Sequence record: LC788705.1
Length of the DNA stretch: 64,000 nt
Strand: one strand, 5' to 3'
Source: Escherichia coli phage NG_A1
The notes below the pieces were generated by a model. That model saw only the letters and a program-made list of their open reading frames with translations, searched no databases and was not told where the DNA came from. Positions 48,070 through 50,531 of the stretch are shown here, in pieces; the first letter of the stretch is position 1, and each line of letters opens with the position of its first letter. The position numbers and the translations under genes are program-made.

Positions 48070-48240
48070 ATGAAATCAGTTGTAATTATTGGTGTTAATA
48101 CTCGCGGTATTCGTACTACGAAAACTGTTAAAACTTCCAACGTTGCTGAGATCACTACGAACCCTAAAAAGTTTGATTTCGCCAAAGTCTCAGCAGTTAT
48201 GACAGAACAATCTTTTAACCAAGCGTTAGGAATGAAATAA
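48070..48240 (+). CDS. Hypothetical small protein (56 aa)
   Basis: Below ORF-track cut-off; GAGGGG RBS; stop overlaps next ATG (TAATG). Confidence 0.4.
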   Translation: MKSVVIIGVNTRGIRTTKTVKTSNVAEITTNPKKFDFAKVSAVMTEQSFNQALGMK

Positions 48241-48683
48241 TGGAAGAGGATATTTTAGATGTTTTGCGTAGAGCTTTGCAGGATTCTAAGTTTAATGGTT
48301 CTGATAAAGAAGTCGCTAAAAGCTATCAGACCATAATCGGGGATCTTCAGCGTATTAATAAAGATTTCATCACTTCTGAACAATTTGTGTCTTATCTCAA
48401 AGCTCAACTAAAAAGCATTAACCAGATGAAAGCTAAACTTCATGGTCAAGATCTTGATAGTTATAGCTTGCAGTCCGCTCAGTATGAATACATTCTAAAT
48501 AAGTGGTTGCAGGAGTATCTGCCCTCTCAGTTATCTGATACTGAGATTCGTAAATACTTTGCAGAATTAGTTAAGCTAAACCCTGGAATTACAAAAGGTA
48601 TGCTGATGAAAGCGATCAAGGAAGAATTTCCTGGGCGTTATGATGGTGGTACTGCTGCTCAGATTGCTGGCGAATTTAATTAA
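48240..48683 (+). CDS. Hypothetical protein
   Basis: 147-aa ORF. Confidence 0.5.
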   Translation: MEEDILDVLRRALQDSKFNGSDKEVAKSYQTIIGDLQRINKDFITSEQFVSYLKAQLKSINQMKAKLHGQDLDSYSLQSAQYEYILNKWLQEYLPSQLSDTEIRKYFAELVKLNPGITKGMLMKAIKEEFPGRYDGGTAAQIAGEFN

Positions 48684-48691
48684 AAATTTAT

Positions 48692-48720
48692 TTGCTAAAT
48701 GCTTATAAATTCTGTATAAT
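48692..48720 (+). promoter_or_regulatory. Early promoter heading the tRNA/structured-RNA island
   Basis: TTGCTA-N17-TATAAT; no ORF for about 1 kb downstream. Confidence 0.65.
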
Positions 48721-49732
48721 ATATTCATAAATTAGAGAACAGCGAGCCGATTACGCTGAACTTGTCTTAATGTAAGATGCGTCGAGCACTAAGATTCGTT
48801 GAATAGAGTCGGTGGGTTAGTTGTAAAACTAGTACACAGGGGGCGGCAATCCCGGTTAGTGGCTAGAACGTGTAAAATGAGGCGTCTGAAACCTCTCCCC
48901 TAAACTCTTCTCTAATTTATAAATAGTGGGGTGTGGAAATCACTTATGTAGTAACACTGCCGTCCTAGTATAATTGGTATTATCAAGCCGTAACTGGTGG
49001 AAGATGTAGGTTCGAATCCTACGGTCGGTAAGAACTGGATAACTGATGCTTTTAATGTAAAAGCTTCCGAGGTTAGTTGCGCACTGCCTAAACCACGCGG
49101 TAGTTGGTTCCAGACTAACCAACCAGTCTGCTGAATAGTTTTATTACGATTTAACTATGTCCAGGCTAAAGAAGAACTTTAGAAGGTATTCTAGGATAGT
49201 GAAGTTCTTTCTCCATATCGGAGTAGTTTTTCAAGCTATCCACAAAGTGGGAAATGCTGACATGAGAGATGTCACTAATGGTGCACAATAGCACAGGTAA
49301 TTCGCGATAACTCCTGTTGAGTAGCAGCAAAAGGTGGGAAGTCATGACCCCAAGCCTAACCGAGTCCTCAATATACCGCAGGACATAACTACTAAGTCAC
49401 CCTGACTTAAACTGGAAAATAATAGACGTTACTGTATTTTGTCTTGAAATACTTAATGAGTGAGACTTATGACTCTCCCGGTATCGTCTGTATTTTTAAG
49501 AGTTTTTACGAGAGTTCTTAAAAATACTTAAACGGGGTGTAGTCTAAGGGAGAGGCAGGAGTCTTCTAAATTCCTTTATGCAGGTTCGAATCCCTTGTCA
49601 CGCACCAAATTTGATGGTCAGAGTAAATTAAACCTACTATCTCGGTTGAGCTGTTTTAATGGGTTCGAATCCCAGCGAGGCGTAACTGCCTGGTGTGATA
49701 GAGGCATCATTCCACTAACATTGGAAAAACTA

Positions 49733-49963
49733 ATGAAACGAAAATTAAAAAAGTCTTATATAATTAAGATAAATAAGCTACGAAGTAGGGCAAAAGGATG
49801 GCCACTTCGAATATTAATTGCGGATAACCATACTAGATACCATGCGGAACAACGTCATTACAAACAGTGGGAGTCATACTGCCGCTCAAAAGCAGGTCGT
49901 TTAGATGGATCTTATGAGTTTCTATTTGGTAAAAAGCCTACTAGAGTAGCTTTAGGTAATTAA
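49733..49963 (+). CDS. Hypothetical small basic protein inside tRNA island
   Basis: 76 aa from internal ATG of the 49595 ORF; weak RBS; the upstream part of that ORF overlaps tRNA-like motifs. Confidence 0.3.
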   Translation: MKRKLKKSYIIKINKLRSRAKGWPLRILIADNHTRYHAEQRHYKQWESYCRSKAGRLDGSYEFLFGKKPTRVALGN

Positions 49964-49968
49964 TACTT

Positions 49969-50059
49969 GGAAGAGCAAATCGAATTGGCGACGAAAACCG
50001 CTTGGAAAGTGGCTGACTGGTAAAACGGCTTGAGAGTTCAAATCTCTCCTCTTCCGCCA
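49969..50059 (+). tRNA. tRNA-Ser(GGA)-like, type II, CCA encoded
   Basis: 7-bp acceptor GGAAGAG/CTCTTCC, T-arm GAGAG-TTCAAAT-CTCTC, discriminator G + CCA, anticodon loop TTGGAAA; D-arm atypical (4-nt linker). Confidence 0.5.
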
Positions 50060-50071
50060 AACAATTTATAT

Positions 50072-50166
50072 GGTAGGTCAATCCAACGGCTGGCGCTGGA
50101 CTCCGACTTGAAATCGGTTGATCGTAGTGATACGGTGTAAGGGTTCGATCCCCTTACCTACCTCCA
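50072..50166 (+). tRNA. tRNA-Ser(TGA), type II, CCA encoded
   Basis: Acceptor GGTAGGT/ACCTACC, anticodon stem-loop CCGA-CTTGAAA-TCGG, variable arm CGTA-GTGA-TACG, T-arm AAGGG-TTCGATC-CCCTT. Confidence 0.6.
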
Positions 50167-50171
50167 AATCT

Positions 50172-50302
50172 TGGAATATGCCGGAATTGGTAGACGGGAC
50201 TGCCGAATAGGTTTACTAGGAACATCCACTCCTAGAAATATACCTTAAAAGCGGTTGAGTTAAATGGTCTAACTCATGAAGGTTCAAGCCCTTCTATTCC
50301 TT
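50172..50302 (+). ncRNA. Oversized tRNA-like element (131 nt) with Leu-type D-arm and canonical T-arm
   Basis: 5' TGGAATA-TG-CCG-GAATTGGTAGA-CGG; 3' GAAGG-TTCAAGC-CCTTC + TATTCCT pairing the 5' end; internal arms do not fit a cloverleaf. Confidence 0.4.
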
Positions 50303-50531
50303 GATACATCAATGGCTCAAAGTGTAACGGTGCTATTTGATGCTCTTGGAAAGACTTTCCCGACATGCGTTCGGGGGTAAGCTTCTGAGGCTAGAATAGA
50401 AGAGTTTCTGAGAGCCGCCACAATTGAAAATTCGTACTCGTCTTGAGCTGCATGCAATAGGAGATAACTTGATTAGTATTCTAGAACATGCTAATTGAGG
50501 ATGGTTTCGCTAACCCTGCGAGTTTTCAATT

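What the first reader, a model, noticed from the sequence alone, without database searches (positions are those of the whole stretch)
48721..49968. About 1.2-kb ORF-poor island with tRNA-like T-arm motifs that do not fold as canonical tRNAs
Downstream of promoter 48692-48720 there is no convincing ORF for over 1 kb. Three GGTTCGAATCC T-loop-like motifs occur (about 49006-49030, 49576-49607, 49656-49690), some followed by acceptor-like stems and even CACCA, but matching 5' halves, D-arms and anticodon arms are missing. The region also has mutually exclusive hairpins (49100-49135: TTGGTT/AACCAA versus CAGACT/AGTCTG). These could be stable non-tRNA RNAs, decayed tRNAs or processing substrates.
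Basis: seen in the sequence. Interest (0 to 1): 0.55.

Follow-up and report, generated by a model that had tools for sequence, protein, structure and literature searches.

The report
T5-type structured RNA plus hybrid tRNA
This stretch is the start of the tRNA gene cluster of a T5-like phage: a conserved ~0.8-kb non-coding structured RNA with a built-in tRNA-shaped domain, then a broken hybrid tRNA left by a 7.2-kb deletion; most of this is known T5 biology, but what the RNA does is still unknown.

Summary
The three GGTTCGAATCC boxes are real (49009, 49583, 49662; 0.03 expected by chance), but they are three different things. (1) 48727-49532 is the homolog of 'RNAX', which the T5 reference genome annotates as a stable RNA of unknown function. 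It is non-coding, has no Rfam family, and is built of domains with covarying helices. One domain (48959-49030) is tRNA-shaped, with acceptor, D and T arms but only a 3-bp/6-nt stub for an anticodon arm. A covarying 14-bp leader-trailer helix (48939-58 with 49031-47) closes this domain into the larger RNA. (2) 49533-49607, called tRNA-Arg(UCU) by ARAGORN, is a hybrid. A 7,193-bp deletion between two of seven direct T-loop boxes fused the 5' part of tRNA-Arg to the 3' end of tRNA-Leu(UAG). That broke the acceptor and T stems (21 bits against 49 for the intact gene) and removed 13-14 other tRNA genes. No sequence searched carries this junction. (3) 49660-49674 is an orphan T-arm hairpin that lies downstream of tRNA-Leu(UAG) in undeleted relatives. 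49733-49963 is a real 76-aa ORF (phrog_7065). The deletion is ordinary T5 'del-1' biology. The conserved architecture of RNAX is the interesting part.

The parts
48692..48720 (+). Early sigma-70-type promoter (TTGCTA -35, TATAAT -10); homolog of T5 promoter 'P 16-17'
   Evidence: 10 of 12 matches; 100% identity over 49 nt to the annotated T5 promoter.
48727..49532 (+). Homolog of T5 RNAX: a ~0.8-kb non-coding, multi-domain structured RNA running from the transcription start to the 5' end of the former tRNA-Arg
   Evidence: T5 misc_RNA rnaX, 719 nt, 'stable RNA with unknown functions'. (no coding signal). (no Rfam family apart from the tRNA model on the embedded domain). (covariation). (no + strand terminator between 48721 and 50277).
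48729..48918 (+). 5' domain A: closing stem AAATTAGAGA (48729-38) with TCTCTAATTT (48909-18); hairpin CAGCG/CGCTG (48740-58) with conserved loop AGCCGAUUA; conserved junction CUGAAUAGAGUCGGUG; variable hairpins
   Evidence: Present at 128-229 nt in Tequintavirus, Epseptimavirus, Sugarlandvirus, Pantoea phage AAS21 and one metagenome contig. Absent in T5 and Kenya-K44. Replaced by an HNH endonuclease ORF in S113, MET_P1_137_112 and IrmaTschudi. The core is invariant, so it gives no covariation evidence.
48939..48958 (+). Leader strand of the helix that extends the acceptor stem of the tRNA-like domain
   Evidence: 14 pairs with 49031-49047, 100% of 322 cells paired, 5 pairs changed on both sides, shifted controls 33-36% paired.
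48959..49030 (+). tRNA-shaped domain without an anticodon (T-loop box 1): 7-bp acceptor stem with a U5.U68 mismatch, D arm with the G18/G19 pair of guanines, T arm, 5-nt variable loop; the 'anticodon arm' is 3 bp plus a 6-nt loop GUAACU; no encoded CCA
   Evidence: Rfam tRNA 35.5 bits; the anticodon arm is not aligned; cloverleaf as minimum-energy fold; covariation over 23 distinct sequences; anticodon-arm variants with loops of 6, 6, 6, 4 and 5 nt, or a 21-nt expansion; no CCA.
49031..49047 (+). Trailer strand of the leader-trailer helix
49048..49064 (+). Conserved hairpin GCUUUUA-AUG-UAAAAGC lying directly against the leader-trailer helix
   Evidence: helix 7: 91% of cells paired, CG to GC in 4 sequences, UA to AU or CG in 10.
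49103..49130 (+).
   Evidence: sequence; the first stem is kept in relatives of the same sequence type, the 3' strand of the second is missing in three phages, and the whole module is replaced by unrelated sequence in the SP76/oselot type.
49246..49529 (+). Conserved 3' domain of RNAX: closing stem GUGG/CYAC; covarying hairpins; invariant palindrome GUCAUGAC (49341-48) in a hairpin loop; invariant hairpin AAGUCACCCUGACUU (49394-49408) followed by AAACUGGAA; a three-way junction; a terminal 16-bp A/U-rich hairpin (49490-49527)
   Evidence: 63 pairs, 20 with changes on both sides, 97% of cells paired against 34-49% in shifted controls, 0 of 500 shuffles as high; the motif is found only in T5-like contigs.
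49533..49607 (+). Hybrid (chimeric) tRNA gene: the 5' part of tRNA-Arg(UCU) up to the T loop, joined to the 3' T-stem strand, acceptor strand and CCA of tRNA-Leu(UAG); T-loop box 2 (49583-49593) is the crossover
   Evidence: three-way alignment; 7,193 bp missing relative to phage Baret; 21.2 bits and no cloverleaf, against 49.3 bits and a cloverleaf for the intact gene; ARAGORN still calls it tRNA-Arg.
49608..49732 (+). Spacer that follows tRNA-Leu(UAG) in undeleted relatives. It holds an orphan T-arm hairpin, UGGG-UUCGAAU-CCCA (49660-49674, box 3), and a GGC-GUAACU-GCC hairpin (49680-49691) whose loop sequence is the same as the anticodon-like loop of box 1
   Evidence: identical in Baret; one substitution across 49608-49695 against phage RN29; no tRNA model match; it folds as a long irregular hairpin tipped by the T loop.
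49733..49963 (+). 76-aa ORF of unknown function (phrog_7065)
   Evidence: E 2.6e-35; the exact protein is encoded on 23 contigs; homologs in T4-like Karamvirus phages, also within a tRNA region.

Best explanation
The island is the promoter-proximal part of the tRNA and stable-RNA transcription unit of a T5-like phage (Tequintavirus, about 97% identical to the nearest sequenced genomes).

Shown. (i) 48727-49532 is the homolog of T5 RNAX, a non-coding RNA made of separately closed domains. The order is 5' domain A, a tRNA-shaped domain, a variable middle module, and a conserved 3' domain ending in a long hairpin 5 nt before the next tRNA gene. (ii) The tRNA-shaped domain keeps the acceptor, D and T arms and the D-loop GG and T-loop UUC.A residues that form the tRNA elbow. 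It has no usable anticodon loop in any relative. Its acceptor stem continues into a covarying 14-bp leader-trailer helix, so it is a built-in domain and not a free-ended tRNA. (iii) The 'tRNA-Arg' at 49533-49607 is a hybrid. Recombination between the 2nd and 6th of seven direct GGTTCGAATCC boxes deleted 7,193 bp. That removed 13-14 tRNA genes and several ORFs, and fused tRNA-Arg(UCU) to the 3' end of tRNA-Leu(UAG). (iv) Box 3 is an orphan T-arm hairpin that lies just downstream of tRNA-Leu(UAG) in undeleted relatives, and a real 76-aa ORF follows it.

Inferred. RNAX is made from the early promoter. In intact phages its 3' end is cut by RNase P at the 5' end of tRNA-Arg, and the terminal hairpin protects that end, which would explain why the RNA is stable. 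The leader-trailer helix keeps RNase P from excising the tRNA-shaped domain. That domain displays a tRNA elbow and upper half to some tRNA-recognising protein, acting as a mimic, decoy or scaffold. In this phage the hybrid is a dead tRNA and probably a poor RNase P substrate, so the 3' end of RNAX is probably altered. Loss of tRNA-Lys(UUU) and tRNA-Tyr should make the phage sensitive to the tRNA-cleaving defence systems PARIS and retron/Septu.
For: Identity with RNAX: T5 record NC_005859.1 annotates misc_RNA rnaX, 'stable RNA with unknown functions', between promoter P 16-17 and tRNA-Arg, and it aligns with the window.

Non-coding: substitutions are flat across codon positions, and relatives carry frameshifts and stop codons.

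Structure: tRNA-like cloverleaf, 88.8% of cells paired against 29-45% in shifted controls, 11 pairs changed on both sides. Leader-trailer helix, 100% of 322 cells paired, five haplotypes all complementary, shifted controls 33-36%. 3' domain, 63 pairs, 20 compensatory, 97% paired against 34-49%. The many G.U pairs fit the + strand.

No anticodon: the loops are GUAACU, UUCACC, UGUGGU, GAGA, or a 21-nt insert with its own hairpin.

Hybrid tRNA: three-way alignment; the two halves lie 7,193 bp apart in phage Baret; 21.2 against 49.3 bits and loss of the cloverleaf.

Literature: the T5 tRNA region 'del-1' is a deletion hotspot through repeat-associated recombination, and deletion variants are viable. 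T5Mos lacks 16 of 23 tRNAs and is sensitive to PARIS (PMC11464382; PMC12483538).

One transcription unit: no + strand terminator between 48721 and 50277.
Against: No expression data for this phage were available. 'Stable RNA' rests on a GenBank annotation of T5 whose primary data I could not read; no paper in the library mentions RNAX. Most homologs are closely related, so the compensatory changes come from roughly 4-6 lineages. The 3' domain structure was predicted from the same alignment it was then counted on. The cores of domain A and of several hairpins never vary, so they say nothing either way. The function (mimic, decoy or scaffold) and the RNase P steps are inference only. T5 and some relatives lack domain A, and some relatives lack the downstream tRNA-Arg, so not all parts are essential. 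The deletion junction is found in no other sequence, and without reads a misassembly cannot be formally excluded.
Confidence: 0.75

Rival explanations
1. Decayed tRNA genes: all three boxes are relics of tRNA genes eroding by mutation, with no function of their own.
For: Box 3 has only a T arm and no tRNA model match. Box 1 scores low for a tRNA, 26-42 bits across relatives. One metagenomic relative (L095) has lost the D arm.
Against: Box 1 is kept across Tequintavirus, Epseptimavirus, Sugarlandvirus and a Pantoea phage, with compensatory changes in the acceptor, D and T stems and in the flanking helix. Relics do not covary. Box 2 differs from the intact tRNA-Arg only downstream of the crossover, so it was made in one step and did not erode. 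Box 3 is almost invariant between phages whose neighbouring ORF is only 88% identical.
Confidence: 0.1
2. The tRNA-like element is a processing signal, as with mitochondrial tRNA punctuation or mascRNA. RNase P, RNase Z or RNase III cut it out, which separates the upstream RNA (domain A, or the HNH mRNA in other phages) from the downstream RNA. The excised piece itself has no role.
For: It has an intact acceptor and T-arm stack and an elbow, which is what RNase P recognises. In S113-type phages it directly follows an HNH endonuclease ORF. A helix of 14 plus 7 bp could be an RNase III site.
Against: The leader is fully base-paired up to position -1, which generally hinders RNase P. T5 annotates one 719-nt stable RNA spanning the element. 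The D arm and the tertiary-contact residues are conserved, yet a bare processing signal would not need them.
Confidence: 0.2
3. The region encodes small proteins, as several GenBank records annotate it (hypothetical proteins; phrog_19105).
For: ORFs of 34-60 aa exist. The 45-aa ORF 48997-49134 matches phrog_19105 at E 3.7e-38. Phage Baret annotates two CDSs here.
Against: There is no third-position bias, and relatives carry frameshifting indels and 1-10 in-frame stops. The phrog_19105 ORF overlaps the T arm, acceptor strand and trailer helix, which explains its conservation. No Pfam hits.
Confidence: 0.04
4. The Arg/Leu junction is an assembly artefact, a contig collapsed across repeated T-loop boxes, and not a real deletion.
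For: The junction lies exactly in an 11-nt repeat and occurs in no other record. All contigs encoding the identical 76-aa protein are undeleted.
Against: Eleven bases is far below assembler k-mer sizes, and the seven boxes are not collapsed elsewhere. Deletions of 0.2-15 kb in this very region are well documented and viable. Another deposited genome of a relative (OR896837.1, 98.7 kb) carries a different deletion in the cluster.
Confidence: 0.06
5. The conserved blocks act at the DNA level, for example as protein-binding palindromes or replication and packaging signals, and not as RNA.
For: The most invariant blocks are DNA palindromes or inverted repeats: GTCATGAC, AGTCA-N3-TGACT, and the 38-bp A/T-rich inverted repeat at 49490-49527.
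Against: Helices keep pairing through G.U intermediates that would be A.C on the other strand. The tRNA fold is an RNA feature. The region lies directly downstream of a strong promoter and is annotated as a stable RNA in T5.
Confidence: 0.05

Closest known systems
Bacteriophage T5 RNAX (rnaX, T5s08; NC_005859.1 40848-41566), with the other T5 'stable RNAs' RNA1, RNA2, RNA3, RNAI, RNAIII, RNAIV and RNA2H
   Same: Same locus, strand and flanks: YqeY-like gene, promoter P 16-17, RNAX, tRNA-Arg. Identity is 91-98% over the shared blocks. The tRNA-like domain, middle module and 3' domain are collinear.
   Different: T5 lacks the 164-nt interior of domain A, keeping only the closing stem with a small loop. 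T5 has an 87-nt duplication near AAACUGGAA. In T5 RNAX ends at an intact tRNA-Arg; here it ends at a hybrid. The annotation gives no structure or function, and I found no paper on it.
T5 'del-1' deletion mutants of the tRNA gene region (T5Mos, T5-123, the Glukhov et al. 2018 collection, DRT9 escapers)
   Same: A multi-kb deletion inside the tRNA cluster, ascribed to repeat-associated recombination. Many tRNA genes are lost and the phage stays viable (PMC11464382; PMC12483538).
   Different: The end points differ (tRNA-Arg T loop to tRNA-Leu(UAG) T loop) and the phage is a different species. Here the crossover can be placed within an 11-nt T-loop box and leaves a hybrid tRNA gene. I could not read Glukhov et al. 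to see whether such hybrids were reported.
GOLLD and ROOL large ornate phage RNAs (Rfam RF01998, RF03087)
   Same: Works alike in context: 0.6-0.8-kb non-coding RNAs of phages and prophages, often beside tRNA islands, function unknown. GOLLD has a conserved 3' region and a variable 5' region, and sometimes carries tRNAs in its linker (PMC12286853). RNAX is ~0.8 kb, heads a tRNA island, has a conserved 3' domain and variable 5' and middle modules, and embeds a tRNA-shaped domain.
   Different: No sequence or structure match to either covariance model, even at E up to 10. Multimer or cage formation is untested. The embedded element is not a functional tRNA.
Bacterial Y-RNA-like RNAs (YrlA) with a tRNA-like domain (from my own knowledge: Chen et al. 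2014, RNA 20:1715)
   Same: A non-coding RNA that contains a tRNA mimic with T and D arms and lacks an anticodon.
   Different: In YrlA the long stem formed by the RNA's ends leaves from the anticodon side and binds the Ro-like protein Rsr. Here the long stem extends the acceptor side. No Rfam Y RNA hit. No rsr gene was looked for or seen near the locus.
tmRNA tRNA-like domain (RF00023)
   Same: A tRNA upper half (acceptor plus T arm) inside a larger RNA, with no anticodon.
   Different: In tmRNA the tRNA-like part is formed by the two ends of the molecule, ends in CCA and is charged with alanine through a G3.U70 pair. Here the domain is contiguous, internal, has C3-G70 and has no CCA. The only tmRNA hits are 15-nt T-loop matches at 10-11 bits against a gathering score of 47. 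ARAGORN finds no tmRNA.

Membership tests
Canonical tRNA (RF00005): box 1, 48959-49030 | Covariance-model score at or above the gathering score (29 bits) | tested here: met
   35.5 bits. Homologs score 26.1-41.9 bits, so the family is borderline. ARAGORN does not call it.
Canonical tRNA (RF00005): box 1, 48959-49030 | 7-bp acceptor stem, D arm with G18 G19, T arm with the UUC.A loop | tested here: met
   all stems present and covarying. The window copy has a U5.U68 mismatch, which is A-U in T5 and U-A in L021.
Canonical tRNA (RF00005): box 1, 48959-49030 | 5-bp anticodon stem with a 7-nt loop carrying an anticodon | tested here: not met
   3 bp plus the 6-nt loop GUAACU. Relatives have UUCACC, UGUGGU, a GAGA tetraloop, or a 21-nt insert. 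The Rfam alignment skips this arm.
Canonical tRNA (RF00005): box 1, 48959-49030 | Free, processable 5' and 3' ends and a CCA end (encoded in this phage's tRNA genes) | tested here: not met
   No CCA follows; the sequence continues GGTCGGT-AAGAAC. Seven of the eight ARAGORN tRNAs in the window encode CCA. Leader and trailer are base-paired. Actual processing cannot be tested with these tools.
Canonical tRNA (RF00005): box 2, 49533-49607 | Covariance-model score at or above the gathering score, and complementary acceptor and T stems | tested here: not met
   21.2 bits, below 29. In the register of the parent tRNA-Arg only 2 of 7 acceptor pairs form. In ARAGORN's register, shifted by one base, there are 3 Watson-Crick and 2 G.U pairs. 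The T stem has 2 Watson-Crick and 1 G.U pair of 5. The minimum-energy fold is not a cloverleaf. The intact homolog scores 49.3 bits. ARAGORN nevertheless reports tRNA-Arg(tct).
Canonical tRNA (RF00005): box 3, 49660-49674 | Any tRNA body beyond the T arm | tested here: not met
   No RF00005 match at E up to 10. No complementary 5' acceptor strand within 200 nt in the window or in undeleted Baret. Only the T-loop box matches other tRNAs.
T5 RNAX homolog | Same position between the P 16-17 promoter and tRNA-Arg, on the same strand, with collinear sequence similarity | tested here: met
   promoter 100%, 48903-49417 at 91.5%, 49395-49601 at 98% identity to T5.
T5 RNAX homolog | Accumulates as a stable RNA in infected cells | not testable with these tools
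   Known only from the T5 GenBank annotation. No expression data were available.
del-1-type deletion by repeat-associated recombination | Two flanks that are contiguous here lie kilobases apart in relatives, with a direct repeat at the junction | tested here: met
   Flanks are 7,193 bp apart in Baret. The 11-nt GGTTCGAATCC box is present at both parental sites and once at the junction.
GOLLD / ROOL | Match to the family covariance model | tested here: not met
   No hit at the gathering score or at E up to 10, in the window or in five relatives.
GOLLD / ROOL | Homo-oligomeric cage assembly | not testable with these tools
   Needs size-exclusion chromatography or cryo-EM of the transcript. The only hint is an invariant palindromic hairpin loop, GUCAUGAC.
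tmRNA | tRNA-like domain formed by the 5' and 3' ends, a tag reading frame, pseudoknots, and a model match | tested here: not met
   ARAGORN finds no tmRNA. Rfam gives only T-loop fragments at 10-11 bits against 47.

The most novel reading that the evidence does not exclude
RNAX is a so far undescribed class of large, modular phage RNA specific to Demerecviridae, functionally comparable to GOLLD and ROOL. Its embedded tRNA-shaped domain, which has no anticodon, and its invariant palindromic loop would let it bind or sequester a tRNA-recognising factor, or self-associate. Candidate factors are a host tRNA-cleaving defence nuclease, RNase P, a tRNA-modification enzyme, or the phage's own YqeY-like protein encoded just upstream. 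On this reading it is an RNA-based counter-defence or tRNA-homeostasis device and not a passive leader.
Probability: 0.15. Interest if true: 0.8.

Novelty: new member of a known kind. Interest (0 to 1): 0.48.

Why it matters
T5's stable RNAs of unknown function sit in its tRNA cluster, and that cluster is now known to decide the outcome of encounters with tRNA-cleaving immune systems (PARIS, retron/Septu, DRT9). This analysis turns one bare annotation, RNAX, into a defined object that can be tested. It has domain boundaries, a covariation-supported structure, a tRNA mimic that is locked into the RNA, and natural variants that lack or swap modules. It is restricted to one phage family and has no Rfam entry. 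It also has a practical use for annotation. tRNA finders report a dead hybrid as tRNA-Arg. They give the embedded domain varying labels (tRNA-OTHER, Sec, Pro, Ser). Gene callers place spurious ORFs on it. Finally, the hybrid shows at base resolution how identical T-loop boxes drive tRNA-cluster deletions in this phage group, and it predicts which defence systems this phage can no longer evade.

Tried and rejected
- Rfam at the gathering score and at E up to 10, on the window and on five relatives. Nothing matched except the tRNA model: no GOLLD, ROOL, HEARO, Y RNA, ribozyme, riboswitch or group I intron.
- Single-sequence folding of 48721-48958 and 49031-49531. The z-scores were -0.64 and -2.47, uninformative on their own.
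- RNAalifold on domain A. It found only invariant stems and no compensatory pairs, so that structure remains unproven.
- A small hairpin at 48933-48943 in the linker. Support is mixed, with 5 of 23 sequences unpaired at one pair (helix 1). I replaced it with the leader-trailer helix.
- Looking for a parent tRNA or a T5 stable RNA related to the box 3 region. Only the T-loop box matches, and the 3' end of tRNA-Leu(UAA) differs.
- Looking for the junction elsewhere. It is absent from 50,697 phage records, IMG/VR, 56 fetched loci, and all contigs that encode the identical 76-aa protein.
- Metagenome scan for the leader motif. It gave 39 hits, 28 of them chance matches and 11 real.
- Bacterial genome scan for the 3' domain motif: no hits.
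- Literature. No paper mentions RNAX together with T5. Glukhov et al. 2018 is not held in the library. My first attempt to look up the ORF used the wrong start codon.
- I considered an H-type pseudoknot for 49103-49130 and set it aside. Both 6-7-bp stems would have connecting loops of 0-1 nt, and the second stem is not conserved.
Full report
**What the window is.** The region matches hundreds of T5-like phage genomes (Demerecviridae, mostly Tequintavirus). The flanks are about 97% identical to the nearest records: T5_ev219 and NBSal005 upstream, Baret downstream. The finding lies at the head of the phage's tRNA gene cluster. ARAGORN finds eight tRNAs between 49532 and 52219, and Rfam finds seven of those plus one at 48959-49030.

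**Check of the observation.** GGTTCGAATCC occurs exactly three times in the 64 kb, at 49009, 49583 and 49662, all on the + strand. By chance 0.03 are expected. The promoter at 48692-48720 (TTGCTA-17-TATAAT) is confirmed. It is identical to the T5 promoter annotated as 'P 16-17'. From 48721 to 49732 there is no conserved ORF. The 34-60-aa ORFs listed there show no third-position bias and are broken by frameshifts and stops in relatives. The one PHROG match, phrog_19105, lies over the T arm and trailer of the tRNA-like domain, which explains its conservation. However, 49733-49963 is a genuine 76-aa ORF (phrog_7065, E 2.6e-35). It is encoded identically on 23 public contigs and has homologs in T4-like Karamvirus phages, again within a tRNA region. 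The overlapping hairpins at 49103-49130 exist. Only the first stem is kept in relatives of the same sequence type, and the whole module is replaced by unrelated sequence in other phages.

**Box 2 is a deletion hybrid.** No phage record covers 49400-49800 in one piece. In phage Baret (OR896834.1), window 48650-49601 matches 65209-66158 and window 49595-49975 matches 73347-73727. A three-way alignment shows that the window follows tRNA-Arg(UCU) up to the T-loop box and follows tRNA-Leu(UAG) after it.

Baret has seven direct copies of the 11-nt box. The window keeps the first, a fusion of the second and sixth, and the seventh, so the missing segment is 8336 - 1143 = 7,193 bp. That segment holds 13 tRNA genes by ARAGORN: Ser GCU, Leu UAA, Tyr, Glu, Phe, Cys, Asn, Asp, Lys CUU, Pro, Met, Lys UUU and Ala. 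It also holds one more annotated tRNA-Met and about 20 ORFs.

The hybrid keeps the D arm and the UCU anticodon arm of tRNA-Arg. Its 3' T-stem strand, acceptor strand and GCACCA come from tRNA-Leu and do not pair with the Arg 5' strand. It scores 21.2 bits on the tRNA model, and its minimum-energy fold is not a cloverleaf. The intact Baret gene scores 49.3 bits and folds as a clean cloverleaf. ARAGORN's 'tRNA-Arg' is therefore a false positive in functional terms.

The junction is absent from INPHARED, IMG/VR, all fetched loci, and the contigs carrying the identical 76-aa protein. The phenomenon itself is well known. The T5 tRNA region ('del-1') is a hotspot for 0.2-15-kb deletions by repeat-associated recombination, and such variants are viable. 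T5Mos lacks 16 of 23 tRNAs and becomes sensitive to PARIS because tRNA-Lys is lost (PMC11464382; PMC12483538). A second deposited genome of mar004NP2 (OR896837.1, 98.7 kb) carries another deletion in the cluster.

**Box 1 lies inside the homolog of T5 RNAX.** The T5 reference record annotates the 719 nt between promoter P 16-17 and tRNA-Arg as misc_RNA rnaX, 'stable RNA with unknown functions'. The window aligns with it throughout, with two differences. The window has a 164-nt interior in its 5' domain that T5 lacks, and T5 has an 87-nt duplication. I found no paper on RNAX and no Rfam family for any part except the tRNA model.

**The tRNA-shaped domain.** 48959-49030 has a 7-bp acceptor stem, a D arm, a 5-nt variable loop and a T arm. 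Its own minimum-energy fold is a cloverleaf. On 23 distinct homologs from Tequintavirus, Epseptimavirus, Sugarlandvirus, Pantoea phage AAS21 and metagenomes, 88.8% of cells pair, against 29-45% in shifted controls. Eleven pairs show changes on both sides, and the T arm is 100% paired. The D-loop GG and T-loop UUC.A residues that form the tRNA elbow are invariant or nearly so.

The anticodon arm is never canonical. It is 3 bp plus GUAACU here. In relatives it is UUCACC, UGUGGU, a GAGA tetraloop, or a long arm with an extra covarying hairpin. This explains why annotators label it tRNA-OTHER, Sec, Ser or Pro. It has no encoded CCA, whereas seven of the eight ARAGORN tRNAs in the window do.

The key new result is that the acceptor stem continues. 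48939-48958 pairs with 49031-49047, giving 14 bp in four segments with A49030 bulged out. All 322 alignment cells are paired. Five haplotypes are all complementary, five pairs change on both sides, and shifted controls give 33-36%. A covarying hairpin (49048-49064) lies directly against this helix. The element is thus a domain closed into the larger RNA and not a free-ended tRNA. This fits the T5 annotation of a single 719-nt stable species spanning it.

**Other domains.**
- Domain A (48729-48918) is closed by AAATTAGAGA/TCTCTAATTT. It has an invariant hairpin (CAGCG/CGCTG, loop AGCCGAUUA) and junction (CUGAAUAGAGUCGGUG), and variable hairpins.
- Domain A occurs in four genera at 128-229 nt. 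It is missing in T5 and some others, and an HNH endonuclease ORF takes its place in S113-type phages. Because its core never varies, its structure is not proven.
- Some phages carry an extra ~190-nt domain between domain A and the leader.
- For the 3' domain (49246-49529), RNAalifold gives 63 pairs, 20 of them with compensatory changes. 97% of cells pair, against 34-49% in shifted controls, and 0 of 500 shuffles reach the score.
- The 3' domain contains an invariant palindrome, GUCAUGAC, in a hairpin loop. It also has an invariant hairpin AAGUCACCCUGACUU followed by AAACUGGAA, a three-way junction that differs in sequence but keeps its pairing between phage groups, and a 16-bp terminal hairpin ending 5 nt before the tRNA.
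- The 3' domain motif is found only in T5-like contigs and in none of 185,579 bacterial genomes.

**Box 3.** 49608-49732 is the spacer that follows tRNA-Leu(UAG) in the 19 or so relatives that share this arrangement. T5 has the HNH gene hegC there instead. The spacer holds only a T-arm hairpin. There is no tRNA model hit, no matching 5' acceptor strand, and no similarity to T5 stable RNAs or other tRNAs beyond the box. It is almost invariant against phage RN29, whose neighbouring ORF is 88% identical, so covariation cannot be assessed. A GGC-GUAACU-GCC hairpin just downstream repeats the loop sequence of box 1's pseudo-anticodon arm. I cannot say whether that is meaningful.

**Mechanism.** Shown: the anatomy described above. 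Inferred:
- The early promoter drives one long transcript; there is no + strand terminator before 50278.
- In intact phages RNase P cuts at tRNA-Arg and creates the 3' end of RNAX, which the terminal hairpin protects.
- The paired leader blocks excision of the tRNA-shaped domain.
- That domain offers a tRNA elbow and upper half to some tRNA-recognising partner.
- In this phage the hybrid is probably cut poorly, so the 3' end of RNAX probably differs.
- Loss of tRNA-Lys(UUU) and tRNA-Tyr predicts sensitivity to PARIS and to retron/Septu-type defences.

**Comparison and verdict.** The closest known object is T5 RNAX itself, and membership by position and sequence is met. The deletion belongs to the known del-1 class. 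In context RNAX resembles GOLLD and ROOL: large phage RNAs beside tRNA islands, with a conserved 3' and variable 5' region, sometimes with embedded tRNAs (PMC12286853). It fails their model tests, so it is at most an analogue. It is not a tmRNA, and its topology is the reverse of YrlA-type Y RNAs.

What is not yet in Rfam or in the literature I could search is the conserved modular structure of RNAX and its locked-in tRNA mimic without an anticodon. Interest is moderate (0.48). Novelty: new member of a known kind.

Noticed in passing
window 49969-50064 and 50072-50162: Two long-variable-arm serine tRNA genes, the homologs of T5 tRNA-Ser2(GGA) and tRNA-Ser1(UGA). ARAGORN misses both, and both fall below the Rfam tRNA threshold. 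The second hits only the tRNA-Sec model, at 38.3 bits against a gathering score of 47. Automatic tRNA counts for this phage group are therefore too low.
   Followed up: partly
window 50166-50531: 97% identical to T5 RNA1 ('tRNA-like stable RNA'), RNAI and RNAIII ('stable RNA with unknown functions'), which lie just upstream of tRNA-His. RNA1 contains a weak tRNA match (50234-50302, 21.6 bits) and a T arm GAAGG-TTCAAGC-CCTTC. These are further uncharacterised stable RNAs in the same cluster.
   Followed up: partly
window 48240-48683: The gene directly upstream of the RNAX promoter encodes a 147-aa YqeY/GatB-tail-like protein (phrog_1460 'tRNA amidotransferase'; Pfam YqeY at 26.2 bits, just under the cut-off of 27). 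The YqeY-then-RNAX order is kept in Tequintavirus, Epseptimavirus and Pantoea phage AAS21 but not in the Klebsiella Sugarlandvirus phages. From my own knowledge, the YqeY-like tail of GatB binds the tRNA D loop, so this protein is a candidate partner for the tRNA-shaped domain.
   Followed up: no
L006 302-799, L007 438-920, L015 417-899 (relatives); corresponds to window 48729-48918: In S113, MET_P1_137_112, IrmaTschudi and two other contigs, an HNH homing-endonuclease ORF of about 160 aa (annotated 'P-TflX') sits between the promoter and the leader, exactly where this window has RNA domain A. T5 has neither. The site is a hotspot for module exchange.
   Followed up: partly
L011 ~690-900, L012/L013 ~1180-1330, L023 (relatives): TrudiGerster, an IMG/VR phage and the Klebsiella Sugarlandvirus phages carry an additional conserved non-coding module of about 190 nt between domain A and the tRNA-like leader. 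Shared motifs include GCATGGTGCGTG, CTGAGAAAC and GCAAAT.GGAGACATGTGTATAG. It has no Rfam match.
   Followed up: no
window 48997-49134: PHROG family phrog_19105 (45 aa, unknown function) matches an ORF that overlaps the T arm, the 3' acceptor strand and the trailer helix of the tRNA-like domain. The family is probably built from spurious gene calls on a conserved RNA.
   Followed up: partly
L046 (OR896837.1, 98,746 bp) against LR027384.1 (107,601 bp): Two deposited genomes of phage vB_Eco_mar004NP2 differ by about 8.9 kb. The shorter one has a rearranged tRNA cluster, with tRNA-Met followed closely by a 'tRNA-Phe' and many tRNAs missing. This is another independent deletion in the region.
   Followed up: no
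window 49680-49691 and 48985-48998: The 6-nt loop GUAACU closed by G-C pairs occurs twice: in the pseudo-anticodon arm of the tRNA-like domain (GCC-GUAACU-GGU) and just after the orphan T arm (GGC-GUAACU-GCC). The Klebsiella phage version of the tRNA-like arm reads GGC-GUAACU-GCC exactly. This could be a shared recognition motif or a coincidence.
   Followed up: no
window 49733-49963; L044 1438-1668: The 76-aa phrog_7065 gene shares about 74% DNA identity with a gene in T4-like Karamvirus phages (Enterobacter and Klebsiella hosts), where it also lies between tRNA genes. This small gene seems to travel between the tRNA regions of unrelated phage families.
   Followed up: partly
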